Shown: positions 39,974-56,438, counted from the stretch's first letter. The stretch is 64,000 bases of DNA from Gemmatimonadales bacterium (GCA_965250155.1 OZ252291.1:708583-772582); one strand, 5' to 3'. The notes: a model not told the origin generated them from the letters alone. Numbers and translations are program-made.

Positions 39974-39990
39974 AGATCCTCCCAGCCTGC

Positions 39991-40650: not shown

Positions 40651-40664
40651 ATTTCTCGTCCCTC

Positions 40665-42425
40665 CTATGCGCCGGCCGCAGCCGAATCGACGTCAGATAC
40701 CAGCTTGCGGGTTTGCGGGAGGAAGTCCTCCTCCACCAGCGGCGAGCTGTACTCGTAGGGACCGCGATACACCGTCGGTACCTTGGCAAAGTTGCCATGG
40801 GGCGGCGGAGAGGGAACCGTCCATTCCAGCCCGTTGGCATCCCACGGGTTCTCGGCAGCCTTCTCGCCCTTGAACCAGCTCATGATGAAATTCACCACGA
40901 ACAGTATTTGCACAATCAACAGCAACAACGCACTCACCGTAATGAACCTGTTGAGCGGGGCGAGCGACTGTAGGAATTCGTATTGCGAGGGGTCGTAAAT
41001 GCGTCGCATGTGTCCGCTGATGCCTAGATTGTGCATCGGGAAGAACGTCAGGTTGTAGAAAAGGAAAGTCAGCCAGAAATGGATCTTGCCCAGGGTGGCG
41101 TTCATCATCCGGCCGAACATCTTCGGGTACCAATATGTCACCGCCGCAAAGATGGCGAAGAGGCTTCCGCCGAACAGTACGTAGTGGATATGAGCCACGA
41201 TGAAGTAGGTATCGTGGATGTAGATGTCCACAGGCGTGGCAGCCATGAAGATTCCGCTCAGGCCGCCAATCACGAACATCGCCACAAACCCGACCGCGTG
41301 GAGCATCGGTACGTGGAAGCGAATGTTCCCCCGCCACATCGTTCCCATCCAATTGAACACCTTGATAGCCGACGGCACCGCGATGATCATGGTGGATATC
41401 ATGAACGTCATGCCCAACGTGGGATTCATGCCGCTCTGGAACATGTGGTGGCCCCACACGACCCATCCCAGAAAGGCGATGGAGATGAGCGCGAACACCA
41501 TCGAGTAGTAACCGAACACCGGCTTGCGCGATCCGTTCGCAATGATGTCCGAGACCATGCCCATCGCCGGCAGGATGAGGATGTAGACCTCAGGGTGCCC
41601 GAAGTACCAGAACAGGTGTTGCCAGAGGATCACTTGGCCGCCGTCCGTCCAATCAAAGAAGTGCGTCCCGATAGTCTGGTCGAAGAAGAGCATGATCGCC
41701 GCCCCCGAGAGGATGGGGATGGCAAGCAGCACAAGGATCGCCGTGACGAAGAGTGACCAGATCGACAGTGGCATCCTGAACCAGGTCATCCCGGGAGCCC
41801 GCAGGTTTACCACCGTCGTGATGTAGTTCACGGCACCCAAGATCGACGCTAGACCGAGGATCGCCAGGCTCAGCAGCCAGATTTGTTGTCCCCCCCTTAC
41901 GCCGGTCCATTCGGGATCCGCGCTGAGCGGCGCGTACGCCGTCCAGCCCGCAGCCGCGTGGCCGCCTTCGACGAAGAAGCCTGCCATCATCAAGATCCCG
42001 GCAGAGAAGGCAATCCAGAACGACGCCATATTGAGTCGCGGAAATGCCATGTCCGGCGCGCCGATCTTGAGTGGGATCAAGAAATTCCCGAACACGCCGA
42101 CCAGCAGCGGCATGATGGCGAAGAACACCATGATCGTGCCGTGCATAGTGACCAGCGAGTTATAGAATTCGGGAAGCAGGATCCCGTCGGGCGCCATGGT
42201 CTCGGGAAGCAGCTGCCCCGCCGGGAGCGGCCGGTCCGGAAATCCGAGTTGCCATCGGATCATCATCGCCATCAACCCGCCGAACAGCAGGAACACAAAG
42301 CTCATCAGCAGGAATTGAATGCCGATGATCTTGTGGTCGGTCGAGAAGATGTACTTTCGCAGGAAAGATAGCTCGTGGGCTTCCACGTGCGCTGCGGGTT
42401 CCAAAGAAACCGCGGAAGTCGCCAT
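40665..42425 (-). CDS. ctaD: cytochrome c oxidase subunit I
   Basis: Motifs WYFGHPEVYILILP, GHHMF, FVIGGLSG and VAHIHYVLFGG. Confidence 0.95.
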   Translation of the reverse strand: MATSAVSLEPAAHVEAHELSFLRKYIFSTDHKIIGIQFLLMSFVFLLFGGLMAMMIRWQLGFPDRPLPAGQLLPETMAPDGILLPEFYNSLVTMHGTIMVFFAIMPLLVGVFGNFLIPLKIGAPDMAFPRLNMASFWIAFSAGILMMAGFFVEGGHAAAGWTAYAPLSADPEWTGVRGGQQIWLLSLAILGLASILGAVNYITTVVNLRAPGMTWFRMPLSIWSLFVTAILVLLAIPILSGAAIMLFFDQTIGTHFFDWTDGGQVILWQHLFWYFGHPEVYILILPAMGMVSDIIANGSRKPVFGYYSMVFALISIAFLGWVVWGHHMFQSGMNPTLGMTFMISTMIIAVPSAIKVFNWMGTMWRGNIRFHVPMLHAVGFVAMFVIGGLSGIFMAATPVDIYIHDTYFIVAHIHYVLFGGSLFAIFAAVTYWYPKMFGRMMNATLGKIHFWLTFLFYNLTFFPMHNLGISGHMRRIYDPSQYEFLQSLAPLNRFITVSALLLLIVQILFVVNFIMSWFKGEKAAENPWDANGLEWTVPSPPPHGNFAKVPTVYRGPYEYSSPLVEEDFLPQTRKLVSDVDSAAAGA

Positions 42426-42459
42426 TGTTATTCCTTACGTCGAAGTGTTCTTACCCTCG

Positions 42460-43134
42460 CTACTCCTCGTCGGCCGCCACGGTCCTGTCCGACAGCCACT
42501 GTTGGTAATCTTCCGCCAAGTGGACGATCACCCTGGCCCGCATGAGATAGTGACCCAGACCGCACAGCTCGGCACAAGCAATCTCGTACTCCCCTACTTC
42601 CGTCGCTTCGAACCACACCTTGATGTCCATACCCGGCACCGCGTCCTGCTTGACGCGGAACGCAGGGACGAAGAATGAGTGTATCACGTCTTCGGCAATC
42701 AGCTGCAGCTCCACAGGCCGGTTCACCGGAATGTGAAGCTGGTTTCTCAGCGTGAAATCGTCGCCGGTCCCGAGCTGCCCATCGGGACCCCGATAAGTGA
42801 AGTTCCACTCGAACTGCTTGGCATGGACTTCGTACGGGATGGCGTTCGGCGGAATGCTGTTCCGGCCCCTGACGTGATTCCACACCCCGCCGCTCATGAG
42901 TCCGATGATTACCAGCGTCACAGCCGGAACCGCAGTCCAAACAATCTCGGCCCTTATGCTTCCTTCGATGTATTGGGCCTTGCGGCCCGGCCGGGCCCGA
43001 TACTTGATCGCGAACACAACCAGCCCGACTTCGACCACCACAAACGCTATACCGGTAATGACGAGAATGACGTAATACAAAAAATCGATATCACCGGCGA
43101 ACGTGGACGCACTGGATGGTAGAATCCAACTCAT
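42460..43134 (-). CDS. ctaC: cytochrome c oxidase subunit II (no fused cytochrome c domain)
   Basis: Two TM helices with CuA ligands VIHSFFVP and CAELCGLGHYLM. The protein ends about 30 aa after the CuA motif. Confidence 0.9.
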   Translation of the reverse strand: MSWILPSSASTFAGDIDFLYYVILVITGIAFVVVEVGLVVFAIKYRARPGRKAQYIEGSIRAEIVWTAVPAVTLVIIGLMSGGVWNHVRGRNSIPPNAIPYEVHAKQFEWNFTYRGPDGQLGTGDDFTLRNQLHIPVNRPVELQLIAEDVIHSFFVPAFRVKQDAVPGMDIKVWFEATEVGEYEIACAELCGLGHYLMRARVIVHLAEDYQQWLSDRTVAADEE

Positions 43135-43914: not shown

Positions 43915-45510
43915 CTATGCCCCGCGTTCCCGTCGCTGGGCGCGCCAGACGATGCCGAATCCAAGTCCTGCACTCAGCACAACAGCAACGATTGGTGCCA
44001 CAAACACGCGAGGCGGTGTCGGCACATCCAAATAGATCGCATACCAGGCACTGATCGAGCCGCGCACACCGTCCTCACCGGCGGTGCCGTCTGCGGCAAA
44101 GAAACCGATCGGCAACGGCTCACCCGGCGTGAATGGGACGGCACCGCTCGGGTCAGCCGGGGCCAACACCCGCATGAACTGCACCTGCCACTGGCCATCC
44201 GCAAATGTAGCCGAATGTGCAACCTGAGGCGCCCCGGCGATGGGCGCGAACGAACCCATTCCGGTAGCCGTGCCCTCTCGAACCCGATCCGGCGAGCTGG
44301 TCCACTGCCACATGTACACCGGGTGCCGCGGGTCGCCGCCCATAAAGAAGGGTAACTCCAATCCCTCGGGCGGGTCGAGCGGGAACTGAATTCCAATCCG
44401 GTCGGGACCCTGCTCCCCGACGTGGGGCGCATCGACATCTGGGAGCGTCTCGACGATGCCCTGGAAGAATGCGTCCCATTCCGGATCGGGACTTCGGGAC
44501 GGATCGTTCCACGTGAGCTTCACGGTCAGGTTCTGGTCGTCGTGCGCGGCTCGCACCCAAATGCCGTCCACCGTGGGCGCGAACCACCGTGGCTTGATAG
44601 TAATCTGACCGACCATCGGGATGTAATACGGTTCGACGTTGTCCCACAGCGGATCCTCCGGACCGGACGGCAACGCCCCGTCAAACCGCGCCGCACGCAC
44701 CACGTCGCGAGGCTGGGGCGCCTCGTCGGGCGAAAGACTCAGCACGTACTGCGCAACCCGCCAAAGCTGCTCGTCGGTAATGATTCCAGCGTCTATGACA
44801 TCACTGTTGGAGGGCATCGGTGTTCCATCCAACCCCGTCCGCATCCGGAGGTAGATGTCGTCGACCGTACCGCCGCCGTTGAAATTCCAGTTTTCCGAGA
44901 GATCGGCTGCCCGAACCGGGAACCCCCAGTCGTCGGTCAACTCCGGGGCGGAGTTCCCATCGCCGCGGCCCTCATCGCCATGGCAGCGGAGGCATTCCAG
45001 CTCATCCACAAACACGCGCCGCCCTTCCTCGAGGTCTGCTTCGGAGGGCCGCCCGGGCTTGCGCCCTACACTGATCGGCTCGGGCGGGGCGCCGTCGAAG
45101 AATCTCGAAAACGTCTTGATATACGCGATCACGTCATCCCGCTCGCCGCCGCTCAGCTTGTCAGCCCACCCCGGCATAGCCGTGCCAGGCATTCCATTGT
45201 CGATGACGGCGCGCATATCGTCATCCGTAGGCAACTCGCCGCTCGCAGTCGTTCTCACCTGGTAGACGGCCGTCGTGAAGTCGCGCGGTCGCGGCAACAT
45301 GAACGCCGCTGCCTCGCCGTCTCCGGCACCCGTGTCTCCGTGACACCCGGCGCACCATTTCTCGTAGAGCTGCTCGCCACGGTCTAGGTCTTGGGCAAGG
45401 ACGGAGGGGGGAGCAGGGAGGAGGAACGCCCCGGCCAGGAGCAGGAAGGCCGCGCACGGCAAGACTCCTCCCACCTCCCACCTCCCACCTCCCTTGACCG
45501 GCCGGATCAC
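43915..45510 (-). CDS. diheme cytochrome c fused to an ethylbenzene-dehydrogenase-gamma/DOMON-like (EB_dh) domain
   Basis: CAGCHG and CLRCHG, followed by IWVRAAHDDQNLTVKLTWND...DRIGIQFP. The GTG start at 45510 has AAGGAGAG upstream and overlaps the upstream stop (GTGA). Signal peptide ...SVLA/QDL. Confidence 0.7.
   Translation of the reverse strand: MIRPVKGGGRWEVGGVLPCAAFLLLAGAFLLPAPPSVLAQDLDRGEQLYEKWCAGCHGDTGAGDGEAAAFMLPRPRDFTTAVYQVRTTASGELPTDDDMRAVIDNGMPGTAMPGWADKLSGGERDDVIAYIKTFSRFFDGAPPEPISVGRKPGRPSEADLEEGRRVFVDELECLRCHGDEGRGDGNSAPELTDDWGFPVRAADLSENWNFNGGGTVDDIYLRMRTGLDGTPMPSNSDVIDAGIITDEQLWRVAQYVLSLSPDEAPQPRDVVRAARFDGALPSGPEDPLWDNVEPYYIPMVGQITIKPRWFAPTVDGIWVRAAHDDQNLTVKLTWNDPSRSPDPEWDAFFQGIVETLPDVDAPHVGEQGPDRIGIQFPLDPPEGLELPFFMGGDPRHPVYMWQWTSSPDRVREGTATGMGSFAPIAGAPQVAHSATFADGQWQVQFMRVLAPADPSGAVPFTPGEPLPIGFFAADGTAGEDGVRGSISAWYAIYLDVPTPPRVFVAPIVAVVLSAGLGFGIVWRAQRRERGA
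45467..45494. repeat. tandem heptamer CCTCCCA x3 plus one imperfect copy (TGGGAGG on the coding strand)
   Basis: Copies at 45467-73, 45474-80 and 45481-87, then CCTCCCT at 45488-94. It lies in codons 6-15 (KGGGRWEVGG) of the cytochrome gene. Confidence 0.9.
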
Positions 45511-46286
45511 TGCTCTCCTTCCACTTCCCACGTCCTCGGCTCCAACCCCGCCTGCTCGTAGATGAAGATGATCACGGACCAGATCTCGTCCTCGGTAAGG
45601 AAATCCTCCCACACCGGCATCGCCGAATTCCACGGCGTCCCTTCAGGCGGCAACCCCGGACCGCCCTTTGCTATGCGCCAGAAGAGGAAGCTCTCTTGCA
45701 GTTGATCGATCGTGCCTGCCTCGAACGCCAGCGGTGTCGGGTTGAAACCGTGGCCGAAGTGCCCTTGCCCGTCCAACAGATCGCCGTGACAAGGCAGGCA
45801 ATTCTGATAGTAGACCCGCCTTCCCTCCAAGTAATGCTCTTCCATGGAGCCGCGCGACCGCAGCGGGTTCTCCAGGCCGGCTAACTTGATAGTCTTATCG
45901 CCGAACCTGATGGTCGCAGGCGGCGCCGGGTGAATCGACCGCAGCTGAGCCGTCGAGCCCACTTTCGGCCGTGCCATGTTGAATGTCGCCAGCCCGATCA
46001 GCACTGAAATCGCCGCAAGCAATGCGCCTCGCAGCGCGCGCTTGTCCGCATCCACCAGCGTCGCCTGTATCGGCTCCTTGAACCTCTTCCAGCGCTCCTC
46101 GTTCTCGCTCACAAAGATGAGTATTCCCAGCAACGCAATGAGCATGTACTCCAACACCACGCTGTTCGGTACGGCGGCGCTCCCGGGAAACAACGGAATC
46201 CCATAATTGAAAAACAGAAATGCGCCAAGCGAAAGCGCGACCGCCTGACCGAACGGATGCTTCATCCAACCCAGGATTCTCTTCAC
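45507..46286 (-). CDS. membrane-anchored monoheme cytochrome c
   Basis: Three N-terminal hydrophobic helices, CLPCHG, and AMPVWEDFLTEDEIWSVIIFIY (class I cytochrome c C-terminal pattern). The GTG start overlaps the upstream TAG by 1 nt. Confidence 0.75.
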   Translation of the reverse strand: MKRILGWMKHPFGQAVALSLGAFLFFNYGIPLFPGSAAVPNSVVLEYMLIALLGILIFVSENEERWKRFKEPIQATLVDADKRALRGALLAAISVLIGLATFNMARPKVGSTAQLRSIHPAPPATIRFGDKTIKLAGLENPLRSRGSMEEHYLEGRRVYYQNCLPCHGDLLDGQGHFGHGFNPTPLAFEAGTIDQLQESFLFWRIAKGGPGLPPEGTPWNSAMPVWEDFLTEDEIWSVIIFIYEQAGLEPRTWEVEGEQ

Positions 46287-47080
46287 TATCGCCGTCCTGC
46301 CAGGAACTGAACCATGGCTTCTAGCTGCTGGGCCGACAGTTTCTGCCCGAAGTCAACCGGCATCATGCCTGCAAATTGTTCAAAGCCGTCGGAAATTTCT
46401 GCATTTGGATCGAGAATAGCGCTCCTTATCTGATCCGCCGTGAGCCGGGCGCCAATCCCGTCGAACGACGGCCCGATCGGAATCGAGATTCCGTTGATGC
46501 CGTGGCAACCGATGCACACATTCTGTGTGAGCAGCTGCATTGGATCTGTGGTCGAGCTGAAAGTGGCCGGCACCGCCGCAGCCGCGGCCGGCTCCGCGGA
46601 TTCGCCTCCGCCTGGCTGGATGTCGGCGGCCGTTACCGTAACCTCACCCCCTTGATCCTGGAGATAGGCGATGATGGCCCAGATCTGGTCAGCCGAGAGT
46701 TGTCGCCGAGCATCCGGCATGATAGCGGTGAATCCGTCTACCAGGTACTCGGCCGGCTGAGTGAGCGATTCGTAGAGATATGCTTTGCAATCCATCCCCG
46801 GCTTAGAATCGCCACACCGCTGCCCAATCGTCCCCTGGCCGGCGTGATCCGTGCGGAGATTCGGCGCCCGGGTACCCAACCCATGGCACACCGTGCAGCC
46901 ACCCGCACCGCTGAAGAGCGCCTCACCGGCAGGTACCAGCACCTCAGGAGTGACCCCTGCACTCAGATCCAGCACCTCCGGCACGGCAGATTGCAGTTGC
47001 GGAATGATCTGTGCCACCATCGTGTAAAACCCCAGCACGATGGCGGCGAGCAACAGCACCCTGAGATTCGTCTTCCACAT
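46286..47080 (-). CDS. diheme cytochrome c, N-terminal anchor/signal
   Basis: CTVCHG and CIGCHG, with DQIWAIIAYLQ and QLEAMVQFL helices. The start was taken at MWKTNLRVLLL, 4 nt after the upstream stop. Confidence 0.8.
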   Translation of the reverse strand: MWKTNLRVLLLAAIVLGFYTMVAQIIPQLQSAVPEVLDLSAGVTPEVLVPAGEALFSGAGGCTVCHGLGTRAPNLRTDHAGQGTIGQRCGDSKPGMDCKAYLYESLTQPAEYLVDGFTAIMPDARRQLSADQIWAIIAYLQDQGGEVTVTAADIQPGGGESAEPAAAAAVPATFSSTTDPMQLLTQNVCIGCHGINGISIPIGPSFDGIGARLTADQIRSAILDPNAEISDGFEQFAGMMPVDFGQKLSAQQLEAMVQFLAGRR

Positions 47081-47084
47081 AACG

Positions 47085-48839
47085 CTACTCCACGAGAGTC
47101 GCGGGTTGTGTCTGCCGCGCAAGCGGCGCCGCCTTGGACTCCGATGCGATCCCCTCGGCCAGGCCGCCCAGCCAAAAGATGAACGTGACCAAGCTCAAGA
47201 AGATTACGACACACACGGTTATCATGTTCGCGGCGTACCCCAACGCCGGCGTGACGGCATAGTCGCTGGTGTCGCGCATGACCTCCCACACGTGCCAGTG
47301 CTGCCGAATGCCGCTGCGTGCGAAGCCCATCAACCCCATGAGCCAGGTGAAAGTGATCGCTAGAACGAAGATCGCGTATTGCGACCGCTCGGGCATCTCA
47401 CCCCAGCGAATCTCGCCTTTCGACCCCGCTCCTCGGAGGATGAACACGTCGATCACCGTCACCCCGATGATACACGCGAGCACCGCAACCACCTGTAACG
47501 GGCTGAGTACGGCGACCCGTGTGATGGTCTCGACCCCGAACGACACACCGAAGAGATCGAATTTGTATCCAATGATTCCCAAGAACAGCACGACGCCCCC
47601 GGACAGCACGAACATCGCCCCCTGGATAAGGGTCCCCGTCTTGGCCCAGGGGACCGTAGGAATCCTGTTCGCCCGCCGATACAGCAAGAAGGAAAGGAAA
47701 GTGGTCAGAATCATGAAATTAACGGCGGTGTTCTTCGCGCTCATCAGGCCGAGCACACCGAGGAAGGGATGGCGGCTGCCCCCCATTGCCGCGAATTCGT
47801 CACGCGTAGCGATCAGGGTGTTCGGAGTGCCCCATACTATCCAACAGATGATCAGGACCACCAGCATCCACTTCGTGTAGGGCATGAATCGTTCGGCTCC
47901 GGGTATTCGCCCCATCCCCGTCCACAGGTAGTAATTGGCCGACAGGAACAGTACGCCGATGAGAATGGCTTGGACGATCCACAACCAGCTCATGAAGCCA
48001 CCCATCATCGTAATGCCCAGCTGTTGGTTGTACTCGTAAATCTCCCGTCCCAGGTAATAGCCCGCGAAGGGCAGCACGATAAACATCGAGATGGCGATGA
48101 ACGTCCCCACGTATCCCATCCAATCGTAGTGGGCACGCTCTTCATCGGTCTTGGCCGCCAAGAAACGATACGCCGCGTACGCCGCGACGATCGAGCCACC
48201 GAACACGGCGTTGGCAATCATGCGGTGTATGTTGATCGGCATCCAAGTGGCGTTGGCGATGGCGTTCCACAACCCGACGCCCTCGGGCAGGCCTTGCACG
48301 GTGGTGCCCTCGGGCGGCGACATCATGTAGGTAAGCCATCCATTGGCAATGAACATGACGGCGGTGCCCCACACGTTCAGCAGCAGGCCGAGCCCCCAGT
48401 GCCCCCATTTGGCGCGACCTTCCTTCCACTTGTCCCAGCCGTAGTAATAGAGGTATAGCGTGAACGATTCGATGAAGAACAGGCCGGCATAGATCCACAT
48501 TGACAGATGGAAGATCTCCGCCATGTGGCCCCAGAACGCCGGGTAGAGCGTTGACAGAAGAAACAGCAGCAACCCGCCCCACAGAGCGGTGGCGCTGTAG
48601 GCGAAAACCAACAGCCGCGTGAACTCTTTCGAGAGCTTGTCGTATTTCGAGTCCTTGCCGACGATTCCGATGAACTCGGTGATCACGGCAAACATGGGCA
48701 CGCCGAGTACAAACGCGGCGAACATCAGGTGGATTTCCGCCGCAATCCAAACCGCGCCCCGCGCACCAATGCCCGGGAAGTCGCCGTACTGGCGGGCGCC
48801 ATCCGCGGCTCCCTGGATCAGGCTCAGCGCGTCAATCAT
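47085..48839 (-). CDS. cytochrome bd-like membrane protein (CydA family, no Q-loop, no CydB partner)
   Basis: The N-terminal ~190 aa are collinear with E. coli CydA (EIHLMF, FFIESF, YYYGWDKW, FIANGWLTYMM, NIHRMI). About 13-14 hydrophobic spans. Degenerate GIRQHW stands in place of GRQPW. Confidence 0.75.
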   Translation of the reverse strand: MIDALSLIQGAADGARQYGDFPGIGARGAVWIAAEIHLMFAAFVLGVPMFAVITEFIGIVGKDSKYDKLSKEFTRLLVFAYSATALWGGLLLFLLSTLYPAFWGHMAEIFHLSMWIYAGLFFIESFTLYLYYYGWDKWKEGRAKWGHWGLGLLLNVWGTAVMFIANGWLTYMMSPPEGTTVQGLPEGVGLWNAIANATWMPINIHRMIANAVFGGSIVAAYAAYRFLAAKTDEERAHYDWMGYVGTFIAISMFIVLPFAGYYLGREIYEYNQQLGITMMGGFMSWLWIVQAILIGVLFLSANYYLWTGMGRIPGAERFMPYTKWMLVVLIICWIVWGTPNTLIATRDEFAAMGGSRHPFLGVLGLMSAKNTAVNFMILTTFLSFLLYRRANRIPTVPWAKTGTLIQGAMFVLSGGVVLFLGIIGYKFDLFGVSFGVETITRVAVLSPLQVVAVLACIIGVTVIDVFILRGAGSKGEIRWGEMPERSQYAIFVLAITFTWLMGLMGFARSGIRQHWHVWEVMRDTSDYAVTPALGYAANMITVCVVIFLSLVTFIFWLGGLAEGIASESKAAPLARQTQPATLVE

Positions 48840-50154
48840 CGCGCGAGAAGAAAGGCAGACGTTTCGAGAAATCCACCGGCATATTGCGGCGCACCTCCCG
48901 CATCAGTTCGGCGGTAACCTCGGTGTGCCCCTCGCGCCGCGCGTAATCCTCCAGCCGTTTCACGACCACGCCGCGTACAAACGAGGGGATGCGTTGAATC
49001 CGCGCCTCAGCCTCATCCGACCACTGCAATTTGGCGGTGACCACCGCCCCATAGGTCACGGCGCGCGAGGTGACGAGCGGACGAGTCTCGTCCGGCTCAT
49101 AGGCACAGGAAGAATCTTCCGCCATGTAGTCGCCGCTCGAGCTGTAAGCCCGGGCACGACACCCACCACAAATCGCTCGGTATTCACAGCGACCGCACTT
49201 TCCGCCTAGCGCTCCCCGGCGCAGATCGTGAAACAGCTCCGAGTTGTTCCACACCTCGGCGAACGACGACTCACGGAGATCGCCGGCCGGGAGCGGCATA
49301 TAAGGACACGCCGTGAGCTTGCCGTCTGGTGTTATGCGCCCGTACTGCACGCCGCACGGGCAGCGGGTGGCATAATTGAGAATCGGAGACTCCGGAGCGC
49401 GCTGGTGCACCAGCCGCATGAAATGCGGTGCACACTTGGCTCGCACCATCATTCGCCCCATGTACTCGATATGAAGGTCCACGAGCTCGCCCAACGAATC
49501 CTCGTATTCCTCCGGCGACAACTCCGCCATCTTAGCGCCGCGCCCCGTGGAAACCACGAAATACGCGTTGAACGACACGGCGCCCTTCTCGGCGGACCAC
49601 GCAACCAGTCCAGGCAGCTCGCGACGGTTCCCCTTGGTGAGCGTGGTTTGTATGACGAAATCGAGACCGTGCACTACCAACCTGTCCACTGCAGCCAGCG
49701 TCGCATCGAGCGAACCGTGGCCGTGCCGGAAGCGGTCGTGATACTTCACGTCGAGCGACTCGACACTCACGGCAACACCGGTCACGCCGGCGTCCTGTAA
49801 CGCGGCGATTTTCTCGGAGGTGAGCAAAGTGCCATTGGTGCCTACGACCACTGTAGCTCCACCCTTCGCCGCATGCGAAGCTATCTCCGAGAGATCCTCA
49901 CGCAGCAGGGGCTCGCCGCCCGACAGGATAAACATGGGATTGGGATTGAGGGCGAGAATCTCGTCTGCGATGCGCAGGCACTCGTCGGTAGACAGCTCAT
50001 CGTCGGCGGATTCGGAGGGGCCCGCCGAGATATAGCAGTGCGCACACTGGAGATTACACCGGCGCGTGAGATTCCACGCGACAACATGGGGCAAGTAGTT
50101 GCCCGCTTGGCGATCACCGGCCGGCGCCTCTCCCAACGCCGCGAGTGACGTCAC
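48832..50154 (-). CDS. radical SAM/SPASM enzyme of the NirJ/AhbC/AhbD type with C-terminal PCP_red-like domain
   Basis: VVAWNLTRRCNLQCAHCY, ILSGGEPLLREDL and the SPASM Cys cluster GKCGRCEYRAICGGCRARAY. The C-terminus reads WSDEAEARIQRIPSFVRGVVVKRLEDYARREGHTEVT. Confidence 0.8.
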   Translation of the reverse strand: MTSLAALGEAPAGDRQAGNYLPHVVAWNLTRRCNLQCAHCYISAGPSESADDELSTDECLRIADEILALNPNPMFILSGGEPLLREDLSEIASHAAKGGATVVVGTNGTLLTSEKIAALQDAGVTGVAVSVESLDVKYHDRFRHGHGSLDATLAAVDRLVVHGLDFVIQTTLTKGNRRELPGLVAWSAEKGAVSFNAYFVVSTGRGAKMAELSPEEYEDSLGELVDLHIEYMGRMMVRAKCAPHFMRLVHQRAPESPILNYATRCPCGVQYGRITPDGKLTACPYMPLPAGDLRESSFAEVWNNSELFHDLRRGALGGKCGRCEYRAICGGCRARAYSSSGDYMAEDSSCAYEPDETRPLVTSRAVTYGAVVTAKLQWSDEAEARIQRIPSFVRGVVVKRLEDYARREGHTEVTAELMREVRRNMPVDFSKRLPFFSRDD

Positions 50155-52139
50155 TCGTCTCCTGTTTTCAGCAACTTTTCGACCGCTGCCTTGGCGTCAG
50201 CCACCGACACTGTTTTAAAGTCAACGGGACAGGCCGACGCTTTTTCCTCTATATCCCTTATGGGACACCTGGTGACCCCGGACGCCTTCGCCTCTTCGAT
50301 AAATTGCCGCATCTCCCGCGACAGTCCATCTCCACCCTCGGCTTCCGCACGAATCTGCTTGGCGCGCAGCTCCCGGAACATCCCCATCATTGTCTCCGCA
50401 TCGAACTCGTCCGCCTCGATCATCGCCTGTTTGTTCTCGTCCATGACCGAAGTGGTGACGCGCCACATCTCATGACCACTGGCGAATTTCTCCACCGCAT
50501 TGCGGGCCAGCGGACGGGCGATCAAGGGAACCGTTCTGAGGCGCTCGAAAGCTTCGACGGTCCAGACAGTGGAGTCTGCCACTTTACGTTCGCGCGTCGT
50601 CATGTGACCGGTCATGGGGCACTTTACGTCGACCACGGCCCCCGCGATTTCGCTGTCTGCCTCATTCCCCAGCACCAGCGTTTTGGCCATCTGCTCCTCG
50701 GCCTTGATTTCGGCACGAGCCAGCTCCTCTGCGTCACCGACGCCCATCAGCAACTGCATGTGAGTCGGCAACAACTTCCGGATGGCCTCGTCCAACCATT
50801 TGTTCGTCACCAGGTCGGCGCCGTGCTCAATGGTGTACTCCTCAACCGCGCGGCGCGCTATCCCCTGTGCGAACGGAGGCACGCGCTGAATTCGCACCTC
50901 GGCGTCCGGGGCCCACGGAATTCCCTCTTTGCCGTCCTCTTCGAGCCAGGGAATGTCCTCGGGCCTTACACCGACCGTCCCGGTAACCAGCAGATTGCAC
51001 GGGGCGAGTCGCAGCAGGTTCTCTACCTGAGAGCCCATCTCCGTTCCATCGATCCGGTGTGCGCCGTGTCGCCCCACGATCAACAGGCTTGGTTGAATCT
51101 CCTCGACCCACTGCAGAATGACTTGGAACGGTTTGCCTATGAGAATCTGCGTTTCGAACCGAACATCGGGAAACTCTTTTGCGATCGCCTCAGCACGCTT
51201 GATGTTCGCTTGGCTGAGCTTCAGGAGTCCCTTGTCGATGATGTTGTTGTGAAGCTCCTCCTGCTCTTCGAACTTGAAGACCTTGGACGCCTTCTCGGAG
51301 AGTACATCCTTGATGTTGTTGAAGACGGCGTGATGATATTCGACGTCGAACGCACTGCAAACGTATACCATCGCATCAAAGTCGCGGGCAAGTTCCAGAG
51401 CGACTCTCATCGTCCTGTAGCTGTACGCGGACCCGTCGACGCAAACCATGAACTTGCCGCGACGCAGTGGCTTGTCGTTGCGGATGATGAGCATGTCCTT
51501 TTCAATGCGCCTTGCCGCCCTGGCAACTACACCGCCAATCTGCGAGTACGGCTGGCGGCCGATGCCGTGTGCGCCCATCAATACCAGATCGTATTGCCGC
51601 CCCGACGCGCCGGCGAGTTTGTCAGCCTGATCTTCGTCCTCACCAACTATGCGTCCGTCGGCACCCAGCCGGACGTCAGAACGAACCCGCTCGCCCCCGT
51701 CGTAATTGGCCGCGATGTTCGGATCGAACCCGATCAGGCTGGGTAGTTGACCCGCTCCACGATTAACCTCGTTAACAATTTCCTCGTAGTTGATTCCCTC
51801 GAGGAGTTGTCGCCGCAACGGAACATCCGCAGCCGCGCAGCGCCGCTCCACCTGGTCGAGGAACGAGTCGGAGATGAGTTGCAGGCCCTTCTCGATCAGC
51901 TTGTCGTGGACTTTGCGCTGGCGCTTGATCTCGGCGGGCGTCTGAAATTGTGCTGGAAGGCCTGTCTCGAGCTGGCGGAATCGAACGTCGTGAAGCCGCG
52001 CCGCGTAGACATGGTTGCCGGTGATGCGCCCTTGGGATTTCGAGCACACCTCGATTGCGCGGGCCACGGCCCAATCGGAGCATTGGGAGTTATCAACTGG
52101 AACGAGAACTTCACTGTACATACCCCCGCCCTTCGGCAA
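50151..52139 (-). CDS. tandem universal-stress-protein domains fused to two PCP_red-like domains
   Basis: Usp patterns VLVPVDNS...DLVLMGAHG and FMVCVDGS...SLLIVGRHG. The PCP_red-like copies are at aa 407-455 and 525-570. The C-terminal tail carries CPIRD...ACP. Confidence 0.7.
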   Translation of the reverse strand: MPKGGGMYSEVLVPVDNSQCSDWAVARAIEVCSKSQGRITGNHVYAARLHDVRFRQLETGLPAQFQTPAEIKRQRKVHDKLIEKGLQLISDSFLDQVERRCAAADVPLRRQLLEGINYEEIVNEVNRGAGQLPSLIGFDPNIAANYDGGERVRSDVRLGADGRIVGEDEDQADKLAGASGRQYDLVLMGAHGIGRQPYSQIGGVVARAARRIEKDMLIIRNDKPLRRGKFMVCVDGSAYSYRTMRVALELARDFDAMVYVCSAFDVEYHHAVFNNIKDVLSEKASKVFKFEEQEELHNNIIDKGLLKLSQANIKRAEAIAKEFPDVRFETQILIGKPFQVILQWVEEIQPSLLIVGRHGAHRIDGTEMGSQVENLLRLAPCNLLVTGTVGVRPEDIPWLEEDGKEGIPWAPDAEVRIQRVPPFAQGIARRAVEEYTIEHGADLVTNKWLDEAIRKLLPTHMQLLMGVGDAEELARAEIKAEEQMAKTLVLGNEADSEIAGAVVDVKCPMTGHMTTRERKVADSTVWTVEAFERLRTVPLIARPLARNAVEKFASGHEMWRVTTSVMDENKQAMIEADEFDAETMMGMFRELRAKQIRAEAEGGDGLSREMRQFIEEAKASGVTRCPIRDIEEKASACPVDFKTVSVADAKAAVEKLLKTGDE

Positions 52140-52261
52140 TGTTGGTGGGTTCCACCAAAAACCAGACTTGGAGGCCGCCTCACGGCACTAGATTGACCTG
52201 ACCTGCTCCGCCCGATTTTGCGCGCGATTATATAGCCCTCGGACCATCTGTCAAGACCGTT

Positions 52262-52507
52262 TCACGGCACGAGTTGCTTTCCGTCGCCATCGAAAACCGT
52301 GAGAGCGTCAACCGGACAAATCTCACACGCTCGAAGGAGTCTCTCGCGCTCTACCGACTCGGGATGCTCGCCGAACACGGCGATGTCATCAGCATCCAGC
52401 TGGAACCCCTCCGGCGCCTCGGACACGCAATCTCCGAAGCCAACGCAGAGACCTCGGTCGATTTGGATTCTCAGCCCTGCGATCGTGCGCTCGTCAATCT
52501 CGGACAC
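52262..52507 (-). CDS. single-cluster ferredoxin
   Basis: 81 aa with CVGFGDC ... CEICP (a CxxFxxC...CP pattern, suggesting 3Fe-4S or a 4Fe-4S cluster with a non-Cys ligand). Confidence 0.8.
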   Translation of the reverse strand: MSEIDERTIAGLRIQIDRGLCVGFGDCVSEAPEGFQLDADDIAVFGEHPESVERERLLRACEICPVDALTVFDGDGKQLVP

Positions 52508-52948
52508 CTACATCGCCTCCAGACCCAGATCGGCACGGGCTTCATCCATGACGGCGGGAGTAATCTCGGCAATCCCGTGTTCGGCCGCCCACTCCACATA
52601 AATCTTCTTGACCATCCCCCGAACGAACTTGGGCACCCTGGTCAGCCGTTCCTCGCTTTCGGCGCTCCAACGCACGCCGCCGGGTCCGCCGGGTGCGGCA
52701 TCCTCGAACGCGTCTTCCCGACCGATCATGGAGCGGCGCGTGAGTTCCATGGGCTGCTCGTCCAGCGTCCGCCCTCCAATCTGCACACCGAGGGCCCCCA
52801 CCAACTGCGTTTCCATGGGATTCGCCAACATCGCTACCTTGTACCCGCACTTCGGACAGCTAAACGATGCGCCAAATGTTCCGTCGCCGGGTTCTTGCCT
52901 CTCCTCGAACGTCATCTGCTCGTCGCAACCGACGCATAGGAACTTCAT
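52508..52948 (-). CDS. zinc-ribbon + PCP_red-like domain protein
   Basis: CVGC...CPKC at the N-terminus. The C-terminus reads VRWSAESEERLTRVPKFVRGMVKKIYVEWAAEHGIAEIT. It abuts the ferredoxin start. Confidence 0.6.
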   Translation of the reverse strand: MKFLCVGCDEQMTFEERQEPGDGTFGASFSCPKCGYKVAMLANPMETQLVGALGVQIGGRTLDEQPMELTRRSMIGREDAFEDAAPGGPGGVRWSAESEERLTRVPKFVRGMVKKIYVEWAAEHGIAEITPAVMDEARADLGLEAM

Positions 52949-52985: not shown

Positions 52986-53828
52986 TTACCGGACGCACCC
53001 CCAAAAGGCGTCTACCAGGCCGGGCGTATCACAGCTCGCCGGCCCGGCGCCCGGCGTGAACGGAACGCGCGCCAGCAGGGGCACGCCAAACTCCTCAGAC
53101 AGGTCGTTGCCCGCCGTTCCATCGAACAACGCACGCAGCGCACCACACTCATCACATCGATAACTGCTCATGTTTTCCACGATCCCGAGGAGGGGTATGC
53201 CGGCTTCCGACGCCGAGCACATGGTTCGAGCGACCGATCTACGAGACTCCTCGCTGGGGATCGTGACGACGAGGGCACCGGTCAGGTTGGGAACCATCTG
53301 CTTGAGATCCACACCGCCGTCCGCACCGGGAGGCAGGTCGACCAGCAGCAGGTCAAGGGCTCCCCACACCACGTCGCTCAGGAACTCTCTCAGCGTACCG
53401 GTCTCCAGCACACCCCGCCACACAAAGCGCTCGGTGGTCGGCTCACGCCAACGCAGCGGTTGGCTTTCCTCCAGGAGCAAGTCCGTCGACACCACACGAA
53501 CGCCGACCGTACCTATGGCTGGTTCGATGCCGTCTTCGGTGACGCGCAAGGGGCCGCTCACCGCCAGAAGTCTCGCCACGGTGGGGCTGCGCAGGTCGGC
53601 GTCCAGAACACCCACTCCCTGTTCGAGACGTGAGGCCAGGCCGGCTGCCAGAGTCGCCGTCAGATGGCTCTTGCCGACGCCGCCCTTGCCGCTCATCACG
53701 GCCACAACCTGTCGCACGGATGCCAGTCGACGACCCACTCTCTCACGCTGGGCTACCACCTGCGCGTACAACTGCGACCGATCTTCGCCCCCGACGTCGT
53801 GATAGGTGCGGAAACTCATAGATCCCAT
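52986..53828 (-). CDS. Mrp/NBP35 (ApbC)-family Fe-S cluster carrier ATPase
   Basis: Deviant Walker A SGKGGVGKS, LLLVDLPPG and ENMSSYRCDECG (CxxC). Confidence 0.85.
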   Translation of the reverse strand: MGSMSFRTYHDVGGEDRSQLYAQVVAQRERVGRRLASVRQVVAVMSGKGGVGKSHLTATLAAGLASRLEQGVGVLDADLRSPTVARLLAVSGPLRVTEDGIEPAIGTVGVRVVSTDLLLEESQPLRWREPTTERFVWRGVLETGTLREFLSDVVWGALDLLLVDLPPGADGGVDLKQMVPNLTGALVVTIPSEESRRSVARTMCSASEAGIPLLGIVENMSSYRCDECGALRALFDGTAGNDLSEEFGVPLLARVPFTPGAGPASCDTPGLVDAFWGCVR

Positions 53829-54277: not shown

Positions 54278-54901
54278 ATGCCGGCATTGTTGCATCCCAT
54301 GAGAAGCGAGCGCGGGATTGCCGCCGCACCGATCCTGCTCCTCACCGGTTTCGGACTCTTTGTGATCGTCATCGGTTTTCTGGTGGTGTCATCGATGATG
54401 CCCAGAGAGGCCTTGGTGTTCGAGCCCACACCGATCTGGCCAACTCCCGCCCCGGTACAAACACTGCTGCACGACACGGTGACGATCGACTCGCAAGAGC
54501 CGACTATCTGGCACTTCTTCGACTTCGATCGCGCTTCCATCGTGCTACCACCGGACACGGCCGGATGGGACCTGGCGATCCGGCGGTTTGCGGTGATAGC
54601 GGCGGATGCGGTGGCCGACATGGGCCCGGCGGCGTTTGACGAGGTGACCGAAGCCCCTGTAGCCGGCTTCGTCGAAACGTCATTTGGCCGGGATACCCTC
54701 AACGCAGCTATCGACCGGTGGTACCGCTACAGCATGGTATCCCACCTATTGGAGCCCAACGATCATGTGTACGTGGTGCGGACACGCGAGTCCCGATTTG
54801 CGAAGTTGGAGTTCCTCAGCTACTACTGTCCCGGGGTCGTCGCGGGCTGCCTGACGTTTCGCTATGTGTATCAGCCGAATGGCGAGAGGGAGTGGCAGTA
54901 G
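54278..54901 (+). CDS. membrane-anchored HmuY-like domain protein (tentative)
   Basis: N-terminal TM helix. GWDLAIRRFAVIA and VYVVRTRESRFAKLEFLSYYCPG resemble HmuY-like family blocks as I recall them. Confidence 0.4.
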   Translation: MPALLHPMRSERGIAAAPILLLTGFGLFVIVIGFLVVSSMMPREALVFEPTPIWPTPAPVQTLLHDTVTIDSQEPTIWHFFDFDRASIVLPPDTAGWDLAIRRFAVIAADAVADMGPAAFDEVTEAPVAGFVETSFGRDTLNAAIDRWYRYSMVSHLLEPNDHVYVVRTRESRFAKLEFLSYYCPGVVAGCLTFRYVYQPNGEREWQ

Positions 54902-55469: not shown

Positions 55470-56438
55470 CTATTCACCCAACACATACGAAAATATCAAC
55501 GGCGCAACGATTGTCGCGTCCGAGTTGATCATGAATTTCGGCGTGTCCACGTCGAGCTTGTACCACGTAATCTTCTCATTCGGCACGGCCCCTGAGTAGG
55601 AACCGTAGGAGGTGATGCTGTCGCCGATCTGGGCAAAATACGCCCAGAACGGAACTTCGCGCTTGAGGTCCTGGAGGATCAACGGCACCACACAGATCGG
55701 AAAATCCCCGGCGATGCCACCACCGATCTGAAAGAATCCCACCGGCGTCGACTCCTCAGCACGCCGCAGATACCACTCCACCAGCGTCTGCATCTGTTCC
55801 GTGCCCGTGCGTACGGCAGTGTGACCCTTGAGGTGCCCCCGGATAACACGCGCCGTGAAGATGTTCCCCAGCGTCGAGTCTTCCCAACCGGGTGTGAAAA
55901 TTGGAAGGTTCTTCTCCTTAGCGGCAAGCACCCACGAGTGTTCCGGGGGCACCTGAAAGTATTGCTCGAGTTCCTTGTGATCGAGCAGATCGTACACGTG
56001 CTCCCATGGAAACTTGGCCTCAGCACTGCCCTCGGCCGCTTTCCACAACTCGACCAGGATATTCTCGGTGTGGCGCATCACCGATTCCGGGATGCACGTA
56101 TCTGTCACCCGGTTGAACCCCTTGTCCCGCAGCTCCCGCTCGTCCTCGGGTCGGAGATCCTTATAATGCGGGACGAGAGCGTACTCCCTGTTGGCAAACA
56201 GATTGAACAAGTCTTCCTCTAAATTCGCTCCCGTAGCGCAGATTGCGTGCACCTTGCCCGCTCGGATCATCTTTGCCATCGAGATACCGAGCTCGGCCGA
56301 ACTCATGGCCCCGGCAACAGTCAGGAACATTTCGCCACCGTCATCGAGCAGCTTCTTCCACCCCTCCGCAGCCGCTACTGTCTCCCGGGCGTTGAAGTGC
56401 TTGAAGTGCGTTCCCATGAAAGAGCTGATCGTGCTCAT
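55470..56438 (-). CDS. deoxyhypusine synthase family protein
   Basis: Motifs FLTVAGAMSSAELG, VHAICATGANLEEDLFN and GGGIAGDFP. Confidence 0.85.
   Translation of the reverse strand: MSTISSFMGTHFKHFNARETVAAAEGWKKLLDDGGEMFLTVAGAMSSAELGISMAKMIRAGKVHAICATGANLEEDLFNLFANREYALVPHYKDLRPEDERELRDKGFNRVTDTCIPESVMRHTENILVELWKAAEGSAEAKFPWEHVYDLLDHKELEQYFQVPPEHSWVLAAKEKNLPIFTPGWEDSTLGNIFTARVIRGHLKGHTAVRTGTEQMQTLVEWYLRRAEESTPVGFFQIGGGIAGDFPICVVPLILQDLKREVPFWAYFAQIGDSITSYGSYSGAVPNEKITWYKLDVDTPKFMINSDATIVAPLIFSYVLGE

What the first reader, a model, noticed from the sequence alone, without database searches (positions are those of the whole stretch)
48889..52948. Four copies of one ~45-aa PCP_red-like module spread over three consecutive proteins
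Seen: four copies of the module.
- (a) 48889-49029: LQWSDEAEARIQRIPSFVRGVVVKRLEDYARREGHTEVTAELMREV.
- (b) 50775-50921: IPWAPDAEVRIQRVPPFAQGIARRAVEEYTIEHGADLVTNKWLDEA.
- (c) 50430-50567: TVWTVEAFERLRTVPLIARPLARNAVEKFASGHEMWRVTTSVMDEN.
- (d) 52535-52675: VRWSAESEERLTRVPKFVRGMVKKIYVEWAAEHGIAEITPAVMDEA.

The shared pattern is W-x2-[ED]-A-x2-R-[IL]-x-R-[IV]-P-x-[FI]-[VA]-[RQ]-x5-[KRN]-x2-E-x5-G-x3-[IV]-T-x3-[ML].

The module is attached to three different partners: a radical SAM core, tandem Usp domains and a Zn ribbon.

Established: this pattern resembles Pfam PCP_red, the C-terminal helical domain of BchB/ChlB.

Inference: it may be a shared docking or tetrapyrrole-handling module that brings an enzyme, a nucleotide-sensing Usp scaffold and a small Zn protein to the same substrate or target.
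Basis: partly seen in the sequence, partly recalled or inferred. Interest (0 to 1): 0.65.

Follow-up and report, generated by a model that had tools for sequence, protein, structure and literature searches.

The report
PCP_red modules beside bd-like oxidase
Four copies of a small helical domain known only from a chlorophyll-synthesis enzyme sit on three neighbouring proteins that form a conserved, undescribed accessory gene set next to an uncharacterised family of respiratory oxidases, which suggests how those oxidases might get their haem cofactor.

Summary
All four segments are genuine PCP_red (PF08369) domains. Each scores above Pfam's cut-off. A profile built from the four alone finds BchB/ChlB C-termini in the PDB at E about 2e-8. 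An AlphaFold model of copy (d) superposes on the solved PCP_red domain 2KRU at 1.4 Å.

The carriers are a tandem ATP-type Usp protein, an AhbD/NirJ2-like radical SAM/SPASM enzyme and a Cys4-knuckle protein. All three are cytoplasmic. Their genes are tightly packed or overlapping and run straight into a cytochrome bd-like (probably OR-N type) oxidase with its c-type cytochromes.

The set recurs in about 80 Gemmatimonadota species. Diverged forms occur in Nitrospinota, Candidatus Manganitrophus, other Nitrospirota and SAR324. There the Usp protein carries up to 6 PCP_red copies, the radical SAM protein 1 to 4, and the knuckle-plus-PCP_red unit is fused into the Usp protein. The commonest total per locus is four modules.

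I found no paper describing this association.

Inferred mechanism: the modules tether a tetrapyrrole-modifying radical SAM enzyme, an ATP-binding scaffold and metal-knuckle units into one haem-maturation assembly. What PCP_red binds (a protein partner, a tetrapyrrole or an Mrp-type ATPase) is unresolved.

The parts
48889..49026 (-). PCP_red copy (a), C-terminal domain of the radical SAM/SPASM protein (aa 377-422)
   Evidence: PF08369 at 52.7 bits against a cut-off of 32.5. Translation checked. It scores best against the radical SAM-borne modules of distant loci.
50784..50921 (-). PCP_red copy (b), first module of the Usp protein (aa 407-452)
   Evidence: PF08369, best stretch 409-452. W409, A413, P421 and A436 are invariant or nearly invariant in 63 family members from several phyla. 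It scores best against the first modules of distant Usp proteins.
50430..50567 (-). PCP_red copy (c), second and most divergent module of the Usp protein (aa 525-570). It follows a degenerate knuckle, KCPMTGH.
   Evidence: Second PF08369 stretch. It scores 82.6 bits in my own four-copy HMM, which was built from the four copies and so includes this one. Type-ii relatives have an intact CxxC...CxxC knuckle at the same place.
52535..52675 (-). PCP_red copy (d), C-terminal domain of the Cys4-knuckle protein (aa 92-138)
   Evidence: PF08369 at 45.6 bits. In the AlphaFold model this part has pLDDT 86-90. Foldseek matches it to 2KRU (rmsd 1.4 Å), 2L09 and 2YNM_D.
48832..50154 (-). Radical SAM/SPASM enzyme of the AhbD/NirJ2 group, 440 aa, with C-terminal PCP_red
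   Evidence: Radical_SAM 96 bits and SPASM 34 bits. AhbD 297 bits and NirJ2 293 bits, both under the cut-off of 500. The CNLQCAHC motif is present. All 120 best homologues share the same architecture.
50151..52139 (-). Tandem Usp protein with two PCP_red modules, 662 aa. The true start is probably M7.
   Evidence: Usp 103.6 bits in two stretches. Foldseek matches UspE, Rv2623 and ATP-bound TTHA0350. Both G-x2-G-x9-G-S motifs are kept. Homologues start at MY.
52508..52948 (-). Cys4-knuckle (Zn-ribbon or rubredoxin-like) protein with PCP_red, 146 aa
   Evidence: C5, C8, C31 and C34 are invariant in 48 homologues. The N-terminal part resembles ZPR1 and NrdR Zn ribbons. NCBI names the homologues 'PCP reductase family protein'.
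52262..52507 (-). Small acidic single-cluster ferredoxin, 81 aa
   Evidence: Fer4_13 39.7 bits and Fer4_15. Present in 71 of 81 Gemmatimonadota loci.
52986..53828 (-). Mrp/NBP35/NUBPL-type P-loop ATPase (Fe-S cluster carrier type), 280 aa
   Evidence: PF10609 at 187 bits. MrpORP 186 bits against a cut-off of 450. A CxxC is at residue 225. It lies next to the small PCP_red gene in 70 of 72 Gemmatimonadota loci and 4 of 4 distant loci that have both.
47085..48839 (-). Cytochrome bd-like oxidase subunit (CydA homologue, probably OR-N type), 584 aa. Its start overlaps the radical SAM stop by 8 nt.
   Evidence: PF01654 at 61.6 bits. Polytopic membrane protein with no CxxCH. Overlap measured. Family description from 10.1101/2021.01.16.426971.
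43915..47122 (-). Three membrane-anchored c-type cytochromes. The last also carries an EB_dh haem b domain.
   Evidence: Cytochrom_C, Cytochrome_CBB3 and EB_dh hits. CxxCH counts of 2, 1 and 2. Conserved downstream of the bd-like gene.

Best explanation
The four segments are real PCP_red domains. These are small three-helix modules homologous to the C-terminal domain of BchB/ChlB, the B subunit of the dark protochlorophyllide reductase.

They sit on three cytoplasmic proteins of one conserved system:
- an ATP-type tandem Usp scaffold carrying a variable number of modules
- a radical SAM/SPASM enzyme of the tetrapyrrole-modifying AhbD/NirJ2 group
- Cys4-knuckle units, whose gene is paired with an Mrp-type Fe-S ATPase gene and, in Gemmatimonadota, with a ferredoxin gene

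The system is encoded next to, and probably co-translated with, an OR-N-type cytochrome bd-like oxidase.

Inferred mechanism: the PCP_red modules act as tethering or docking modules. They hold the radical SAM enzyme, the scaffold and the knuckle units in one assembly. That assembly makes, modifies or hands over a haem-type tetrapyrrole needed by the oxidase, and ATP binding to the Usp domains gates it.

Shown: the homology, the architectures, the conserved gene linkage, the fusions and the taxonomic spread.

Inferred: the tethering role, the tetrapyrrole substrate and the link to oxidase maturation.
For: Homology.

Operon structure: Usp to radical SAM overlap 4 nt, radical SAM to bd-like overlap 8 nt, bd-like to cytochrome c overlap 38 nt.

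Synteny in 81 Gemmatimonadota loci:
- radical SAM-PCP_red in 77
- bd-like in 71
- Mrp in 72
- knuckle-PCP_red in 76
- ferredoxin in 71

Distant relatives, 33-48% identical to the window protein, keep tandem Usp plus up to 6 PCP_red copies, often with rubredoxin-like knuckles between them.

In 80 metagenome loci, a radical SAM-PCP_red gene is adjacent in 52. A bd-like gene lies within the locus (up to 10 kb either side) in 18. One or the other is present in 60, and most of the remaining loci are short contigs.

The distant forms come from Nitrospinota, Candidatus Manganitrophus noduliformans, Nitrospirota and SAR324. OR-N oxidases have been reported in Nitrospinota and Nitrospirota.

Modules are redistributed between polypeptides while the commonest total stays at four: 2+1+1 in 70 loci and 3+1+0 in 29 loci. 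The knuckle-plus-PCP_red unit is fused inside the longer Usp proteins.

The radical SAM-borne module and the first Usp module each score best against modules at the same position in distant loci, so these placements are old.

Radical SAM proteins from four distant loci also match NirJ2 and AhbD best, at 263-347 bits.

The PCP_red carriers seen here and BchB, which acts on a tetrapyrrole, share that context: one of the carriers here belongs to a tetrapyrrole-modifying enzyme family.
Against: - No binding partner of PCP_red was tested or could be tested here.
- The radical SAM enzyme is below the equivalog cut-offs of both AhbD and NirJ2, so its substrate is unknown.
- 29 type-ii loci have the Usp and radical SAM pair with no bd-like gene within 10 kb. 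Two Gemmatimonadota-like loci (L018, L078) have the five-gene module without an adjacent oxidase. The system is therefore not strictly tied to the oxidase.
- Manganitrophus-type loci have Usp-PCP_red directly upstream of bd-like, Rieske and cytochrome b genes but no radical SAM gene nearby.
- The AlphaFold models are of modest confidence, mean pLDDT 65-68.
- OR-N membership of the oxidase was not tested by phylogeny.
Confidence: 0.45

Rival explanations
1. PCP_red is itself a tetrapyrrole-binding lid or carrier module. The Usp and knuckle proteins would be multi-site carriers that hold haem precursors and present them to the radical SAM enzyme, much as C-terminal parts of BchB help enclose protochlorophyllide.
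For: - The two enzyme types that carry the domain are BchB, which acts on a tetrapyrrole, and a radical SAM enzyme of the tetrapyrrole-modifying AhbD/NirJ group.
- The modules keep a basic motif, R-[LI]-x-[RK]-[VI]-P-x-F-[VA]-R-G, which could bind propionates.
- The surroundings are haem-rich: the bd-like oxidase, cytochromes c, an HmuY-like gene and CtaB.
Against: - No conserved His or Cys occurs in any of 46 columns over 516 modules. The most frequent Met reaches 45% at one column and the most frequent Tyr 39%.
- From memory, unverified: in BchB the protochlorophyllide-contacting helices lie upstream of the Pfam region.
- The Foldseek top 50 matched the domain only in the L-protein-bound complex 2YNM, not in the NB-only crystal structures 3AEK or 2XDQ. 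This suggests a mobile domain rather than a fixed pocket wall, but it is indirect evidence.
Confidence: 0.2
2. PCP_red docks a SIMIBI-class Fe-S ATPase dimer: BchL in the protochlorophyllide reductase, and the adjacent Mrp/NBP35 ATPase here. The modules would recruit Mrp, together with ferredoxin, to deliver [4Fe-4S] clusters or ATP-driven electrons to the three-cluster radical SAM enzyme.
For: - The Mrp gene and the small PCP_red gene are immediate neighbours in 70 of 72 Gemmatimonadota loci and in 4 of 4 distant loci that have both.
- Mrp has the CxxC typical of cluster-bridging dimers.
- Among DPOR entries in the Foldseek top 50, the PCP_red domain was matched only in the ADP-AlF3 L2-(NB)2 complex 2YNM.
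- Cryo-EM places BchL in contact with BchB only (PMC12022308).
Against: - Mrp was detected in only 7 of 80 distant loci. It is absent from type-i and type-ii loci, which still carry 3-5 modules.
- I could not inspect coordinates, so a contact between ChlB residues 479-516 and ChlL in 2YNM is unverified.
- No Mrp-PCP_red fusion was seen.
Confidence: 0.17
3. Ordinary reading. The radical SAM protein is simply the oxygen-independent coproheme decarboxylase (AhbD) of the coproporphyrin pathway. The Usp protein is a stress or energy sensor that regulates it or the oxidase. The PCP_red modules are only homotypic oligomerisation helices with no specific target.
For: - AhbD is the top NCBIfam hit for the window protein, and JGI names some homologues 'AdoMet-dependent heme synthase'.
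- AhbD replaces HemQ/ChdC in some organisms (PMC7242693).
- The N-terminal 390 aa is a standard tandem ATP-type Usp.
Against: - The AhbD score is 297 bits against a cut-off of 500, and NirJ2 scores equally.
- The Usp family has its own invariant His-rich insertions: H43, H269 and H297 are invariant, and H50, H78 and H361 nearly so.
- The modules scored match position-equivalent modules of distant loci best, and knuckles are interleaved with the modules. This argues for specific rather than generic contacts.
Confidence: 0.15

Closest known systems
C-terminal PCP_red domain of BchB/ChlB (DPOR subunit B; PDB 2KRU, 2YNM_D) and the stand-alone protein Asr4154 (2L09)
   Same: Same Pfam family. 30-37% identity to the R. 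sphaeroides BchB module. The same W...EA..R[LI]..[VI]P.F[VA]RG...E..A..G...[IV]T motif. The same three-helix fold, at rmsd 1.4-1.5 Å.
   Different: Here the module is attached to a radical SAM enzyme, a tandem Usp protein and a Cys4 knuckle, not to a nitrogenase-like Oxidored_nitro core. It occurs in up to 6 copies per protein. The organisms and loci show no chlorophyll genes nearby.
AhbD (haem b synthase, TIGR04545), NirJ2 (TIGR04055) and NirJ: radical SAM/SPASM tetrapyrrole enzymes
   Same: Full-length alignment to the AhbD and NirJ2 models (aa 24-354). CX3CX2C motif and SPASM cysteines. Scores are two to three times those of the peptide-modifying SPASM families.
   Different: Scores of 263-347 bits are well under the 500-bit equivalog cut-offs. 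There is an extra C-terminal PCP_red domain (in relatives up to four by my HMM). The gene is adjacent to a Usp scaffold and a bd-like oxidase, not to ahbABC or nir genes.
Tandem-type universal stress proteins (UspE, Rv2623, TTHA0350)
   Same: The fold and both ATP-binding glycine motifs.
   Different: Conserved His-rich insertions in both Usp domains and a C-terminal array of PCP_red modules and knuckles.
OR-N family of cytochrome bd-like oxidases (Murali, Gennis and Hemp, 10.1101/2021.01.16.426971)
   Same: A CydA homologue without haem c motifs, with cytochrome c genes adjacent. The accessory-protein relatives come from Nitrospinota, Nitrospirota/Manganitrophus, SAR324 and Gemmatimonadota.
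   Different: The cytoplasmic Usp, radical SAM and knuckle PCP_red gene set is not mentioned in the passages of that work that I read. A text search there found no occurrence of 'radical SAM'. The oxidase subfamily was not placed by phylogeny here.

Membership tests
Pfam PF08369 PCP_red | HMM score above the gathering cut-off of 32.5 bits | tested here: met
   52.7, 70.2 (two copies) and 45.6 bits.
Pfam PF08369 PCP_red | Three-helix fold as in the solved PCP_red domains 2KRU and 2L09 | tested here: met
   The AlphaFold model of copy (d) matches 2KRU at rmsd 1.4 Å with TM(target) 0.76. It also matches 2L09 and 2YNM_D. Copies (b) and (c) are predicted as helical triplets. Copy (a) was not modelled.
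BchB/ChlB (DPOR subunit B, TIGR01278 / NF002789) | Nitrogenase-like catalytic core and a full-length equivalog score | tested here: not met
   Only the last 45-60 model positions match. Scores are 38-44 bits against cut-offs of 490-509. No Oxidored_nitro domain is present.
AhbD haem b synthase (TIGR04545) | Equivalog score of at least 500 bits | tested here: not met
   297 bits for the window protein and 263-314 bits for four distant relatives.
AhbD/NirJ-type radical SAM/SPASM enzymes (broad group) | CX3CX2C radical SAM motif plus a SPASM auxiliary-cluster domain, with best similarity to the tetrapyrrole members | tested here: met
   CNLQCAHC motif. SPASM 34 bits. The top three NCBIfam hits are AhbD, NirJ2 and TIGR04053.
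NirJ2 (TIGR04055) | Equivalog score of at least 500 bits | tested here: not met
   293 bits for the window protein and up to 347 bits in relatives.
Tandem-type Usp (PF00582) | Two Usp domains with the ATP-binding G-x2-G-x9-G-[ST] motifs | tested here: met
   103.6 bits in two stretches. G189, G192 and G202-S203, and G356, G359 and G369-S370, are conserved. Foldseek matches UspE, Rv2623 and TTHA0350. Nucleotide binding itself cannot be tested here.
Mrp/NBP35/NUBPL Fe-S carrier ATPases (PF10609) | P-loop ATPase domain with a C-terminal CxxC for a bridging cluster | tested here: met
   187 bits. CxxC at residue 225. The MrpORP equivalog is not met, at 186 bits against a cut-off of 450.
OR-N cytochrome bd-like oxidases | A CydA homologue that lacks haem c motifs and has cytochrome c donors encoded alongside | tested here: met
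   PF01654 at 61.6 bits. No CxxCH. Three cytochrome c genes lie downstream.
OR-N cytochrome bd-like oxidases | Placement in the OR-N clade of the CydA tree and loss of the quinol-binding site | not tested

The most novel reading that the evidence does not exclude
The cluster encodes a dedicated, previously unrecognised pathway in which an AhbD/NirJ-like radical SAM enzyme makes a modified haem specific to OR-N bd-like oxidases. PCP_red would be a general hand-off or docking module of tetrapyrrole enzymology, used both here and in the dark protochlorophyllide reductase. It would couple the enzyme to Fe-S or ATPase electron and cluster donors on a multivalent, ATP-gated Usp scaffold.
Probability: 0.2. 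Interest if true: 0.85.

Novelty: new variant of a known kind. Interest (0 to 1): 0.6.

Why it matters
OR-N bd-like oxidases are the presumed terminal oxidases of nitrite oxidisers (Nitrospira, Nitrospina), manganese oxidisers (Candidatus Manganitrophus) and many Gemmatimonadota. Their subunit composition, cofactors and function remain unconfirmed (PMC10839748).

A conserved cytoplasmic gene set that contains a tetrapyrrole-type radical SAM enzyme gives a concrete and testable lead. Which haem do these oxidases use, and how is it made or inserted?

The finding also gives the first non-chlorophyll context in which to ask what the PCP_red domain of BchB does. I found no paper addressing that in the library searched.

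Tried and rejected
- **Literature.** Ten full-text searches (PCP_red, PF08369, Asr4154, bd-like with radical SAM or universal stress protein, Manganitrophus combinations, bd-like with protochlorophyllide) found nothing on this association. The DPOR structure papers (PMC2930732, PMC3568340) are not held. The DPOR papers I could read say nothing about the last 45 residues of BchB.
- **Alignment A2.** The 63-sequence alignment was too divergent for a locus scan, so I used the smaller A3 and A4.
- **Genome scan.** It returned only Gemmatimonadota because only the best 80 of 596 loci are kept. Distant contexts came from the metagenome scan and are therefore unnamed.
- **Neighbour clustering.** All-against-all clustering of neighbouring ORFs was polluted by antisense ORFs and by merging through the shared module. 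I used it only to pick ORFs for Pfam.
- **142-aa membrane protein.** It is not detectably related to the DUF4149/CopD-like protein of type-ii loci.
- **Chance or linker explanation.** Rejected on the E-values and shuffle z-scores.
- **Haem-iron ligation by the module.** Judged unlikely because no ligand residue is conserved.
- **Membership in BchB, AhbD, NirJ2 and MrpORP.** Tested and not met.

Full report
**1.

On the minus strand the four ranges translate to the quoted peptides, to within a codon. Pfam PF08369 (PCP_red) is matched above its 32.5-bit cut-off in all three proteins:
- 52.7 bits in the radical SAM protein (48832-50154, aa 378-422)
- 70.2 bits over two stretches in the Usp protein (50151-52139)
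- 45.6 bits in the small protein (52508-52948, aa 94-138)

The copies are 26-41% identical to each other, and their ungapped scores lie 6 to 9.6 sd above shuffles. A six-frame scan of the whole window with an HMM built from the four copies finds only these four. The next hit has E = 0.12.

A profile made from the four copies alone retrieves the C-termini of BchB/ChlB in the PDB (3AEK_B 474-519, 8VQI_B, 2XDQ_B, 2YNM_D). It also retrieves the two stand-alone PCP_red NMR structures, 2KRU and 2L09, at E of 2e-8 to 1e-6.

An AlphaFold model of the small protein has pLDDT 86-90 over the module. It superposes on 2KRU at 1.4 Å and on ChlB in 2YNM at 1.5 Å.

**2. Anatomy of the locus**

All genes are on the minus strand. 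The order is:
- a small membrane protein
- an Mrp/NBP35-type ATPase (52986-53828)
- the Cys4-knuckle-PCP_red protein
- an 81-aa acidic ferredoxin (52262-52507)
- the tandem-Usp protein with two PCP_red modules
- the radical SAM/SPASM-PCP_red protein
- a cytochrome bd-like subunit (47085-48839)
- three c-type cytochromes, the last with an EB_dh haem b domain
- a CarboxypepD_reg-domain protein
- an aa3-type COX2, COX1, COX3 set and CtaB

Usp overlaps radical SAM by 4 nt, radical SAM overlaps bd-like by 8 nt, and bd-like overlaps cytochrome c by 38 nt. These genes are therefore very probably co-transcribed and translationally coupled.

The three PCP_red proteins have no hydrophobic segments, so they are cytoplasmic. 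The bd-like protein is polytopic and has no CxxCH.

The radical SAM protein has CX3CX2C and a SPASM domain. It aligns end to end with the AhbD (297 bits) and NirJ2 (293 bits) models, well above the peptide-maturase families (about 100-140 bits) but below the 500-bit equivalog cut-offs.

The first 390 residues of the Usp protein form a standard tandem ATP-type Usp. Foldseek matches it to UspE, Rv2623 and ATP-bound TTHA0350.

**3. The three proteins are one system, and it is widespread**

The nearest homologues of all three proteins are Gemmatimonadota sequences with identical architectures.

A scan of one genome per species found 596 loci encoding relatives of the Usp protein. The best 80 are all Gemmatimonadota, from Gemmatimonadales and Longimicrobiales. 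My own annotation of those loci plus one further locus, 81 in all, shows the order Mrp, knuckle-PCP_red, ferredoxin, Usp-PCP_red, radical SAM-PCP_red, bd-like, three cytochromes c and COX in almost all loci long enough to tell. The counts are radical SAM 77, bd-like 71, Mrp 72, knuckle protein 76 and ferredoxin 71.

An exhaustive search of 1.84 billion representative proteins found 249 relatives at E < 1e-30. Those at 33-48% identity keep the tandem Usp. By my HMM they carry 0 to 5 PCP_red modules, and Pfam counts up to 6 in one protein. Rubredoxin-like CxxC...CxxC knuckles are often interleaved.

Source names place these forms in Nitrospinota, Candidatus Manganitrophus noduliformans (WP_168062883.1), Nitrospirota and SAR324. 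OR-N bd-like oxidases have been reported in Nitrospinota and Nitrospirota.

**4. Contexts of the distant forms**

I examined 80 metagenome loci. A radical SAM-PCP_red gene with 1 to 4 modules is adjacent in 52. A bd-like gene lies in the locus, within 10 kb, in 18. One or the other is present in 60, and most of the rest are short contigs.

Three layouts recur:
- **Type i:** Usp with 4-5 modules directly upstream of bd-like genes. In the one locus annotated in detail the order was bd-like, Rieske, cytochrome b, bd-like. The Usp length of about 890 aa matches the Manganitrophus cluster.
- **Type ii:** an slr0320-like B12 radical SAM gene, Usp with 3 modules, radical SAM with 1 module, and a DUF4149/CopD-like membrane protein.
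- **Type iii:** the full set with bd-like, cytochromes c, and sometimes Mrp and small PCP_red proteins, as in this window.

Radical SAM proteins from four of these distant loci again match NirJ2 and AhbD best, at 263-347 bits. They therefore form one distinct subfamily of the tetrapyrrole group.

**5. Behaviour of the module**

The commonest number of modules per locus is four, but the split differs: 2+1+1 (Usp, radical SAM, small protein) in 70 Gemmatimonadota loci and 3+1+0 in 29 type-ii loci. Totals from 1 to 10 also occur.

In a type-ii Usp protein an intact Cys4 knuckle precedes the second module. At the same place the window's Usp protein has a degenerate knuckle (KCPMTGH), while an intact knuckle plus module is encoded as the separate 146-aa protein. 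This is fusion and fission of a knuckle-plus-PCP_red unit. It is direct evidence that the small protein and the Usp protein work together.

The window's radical SAM module scores best against the radical SAM modules of distant loci, and its first Usp module scores best against their first Usp modules. Those two placements are therefore old rather than recent duplications.

Over 516 modules the consensus is ..Wt.EA..RL.rVP.FvRg.ar..ve.yAre.G...iT..vmdea. No column has a conserved His or Cys.

**6. What it most likely does**

Shown:
- homology to PCP_red
- conserved co-encoding and fusion of three PCP_red carriers
- a radical SAM enzyme of the tetrapyrrole-modifying group
- tight operon linkage to a bd-like oxidase in Gemmatimonadota
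- repeated linkage in other phyla

Inferred: the modules tether the radical SAM enzyme, the ATP-binding Usp scaffold and the knuckle units (with Mrp and ferredoxin where present) into one cytoplasmic assembly. That assembly makes, modifies or delivers a haem-type cofactor, most plausibly for the bd-like oxidase. I give this about 0.45.

Rivals:
- **The module itself binds the tetrapyrrole (0.2).** The two enzyme types carrying the domain both belong to tetrapyrrole chemistry. Against this, there is no conserved ligand residue, and most copies sit on a non-enzymatic scaffold.
- **The module docks a SIMIBI Fe-S ATPase, BchL in DPOR and Mrp here (0.17).** Mrp and the small PCP_red gene are neighbours in 70 of 72 and 4 of 4 loci. 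Within the Foldseek top 50, the DPOR domain was matched only in the L-protein-bound complex 2YNM. Against this, Mrp is absent from 73 of 80 distant loci.
- **The ordinary reading (0.15).** This would be a housekeeping AhbD plus a generic stress-sensor Usp.

**7. Limits**

- I could not read structure coordinates, so what the BchB module touches in DPOR is unknown to me.
- No multimer prediction was possible.
- The AlphaFold models are of modest confidence, and the conserved His-rich Usp insertions are below pLDDT 50.
- The oxidase was not placed in the CydA tree.
- Type-ii loci, L018 and L078 show that the Usp and radical SAM pair can occur without an adjacent oxidase.

**8. Novelty**

The domain family is known, and NCBI already names such proteins 'PCP reductase family protein'.

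The following were not found in any of the ten full-text searches or in the OR-N papers I read:
- the system itself, a Usp scaffold with repeated PCP_red modules
- the AhbD/NirJ2-like radical SAM enzyme carrying the same module
- the knuckle-module units
- the association of all these with OR-N-type oxidases across four or more phyla

I rate it a new variant of a known kind, with interest 0.6.

Noticed in passing
window 54278-54901 (+): An HmuY-like (haem-binding lipoprotein family) gene diverges from the cluster. The same gene sits beside the cluster in many Gemmatimonadota loci.
   Followed up: partly
window 38829-43134 (-): An aa3-type cytochrome c oxidase (COX2, COX1, COX3) and the haem O synthase CtaB follow directly downstream of the bd-like cluster. 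Two terminal oxidases are therefore encoded back to back.
   Followed up: partly
window 50151-52139 (-), residues 43-78 and 265-301 of the Usp protein: Both Usp domains carry an insertion with conserved histidines. H43, H269 and H297 are invariant and H50, H78 and H361 nearly invariant across 63 sequences spanning several phyla. AlphaFold gives pLDDT below 50 for residues 46-65 and 267-301. This could be a metal or cofactor site.
   Followed up: partly
window 50151-50640 (-) and 48832-48900 (-): The Usp C-terminus has three Cys-Pro motifs (C507, C625, C637) that are invariant in Gemmatimonadota. The Usp and radical SAM proteins both end in a conserved [C/M]-P-V-D-F motif.
   Followed up: partly
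L001 3228-9026 (same contig as L002): Three copies of one DDE_Tnp_1 insertion sequence lie within 6 kb. One sits between the Mrp and knuckle-PCP_red genes of an otherwise intact cluster.
   Followed up: no
L130 8135-9841 and 13663-14232; same layout in L101-L135: In type-ii loci the Usp and radical SAM pair is flanked by a B12-binding radical SAM protein and a DUF4149/CopD-like membrane protein. The B12 protein resembles slr0320, the 'photosystem II high light acclimation' protein (435 bits against a cut-off of 775).
   Followed up: partly
P0397 (672 aa, representative protein): One relative has a weak PNPOx-like split-barrel domain (23.8 bits, below cut-off) N-terminal to the Usp-PCP_red part.
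   Followed up: no
L018 and L078: Two contigs labelled Acidobacteriota carry the five-gene module (Mrp, knuckle, ferredoxin, Usp, radical SAM) at 73-75% identity. No bd-like homologue was detected on either. In L018 the ORFs downstream are a peptidase and unrelated genes.
   Followed up: partly
window 1075-7275 (-): A 2066-aa open reading frame, the largest in the window, was not examined.
   Followed up: no
window 55470-56438 (-) and 60578-63371 (+): A deoxyhypusine synthase-like gene lies upstream of the cluster. A NuoF-like and NuoG-like pair (the latter with a molybdopterin oxidoreductase N-terminus) lies near the window end.
   Followed up: no
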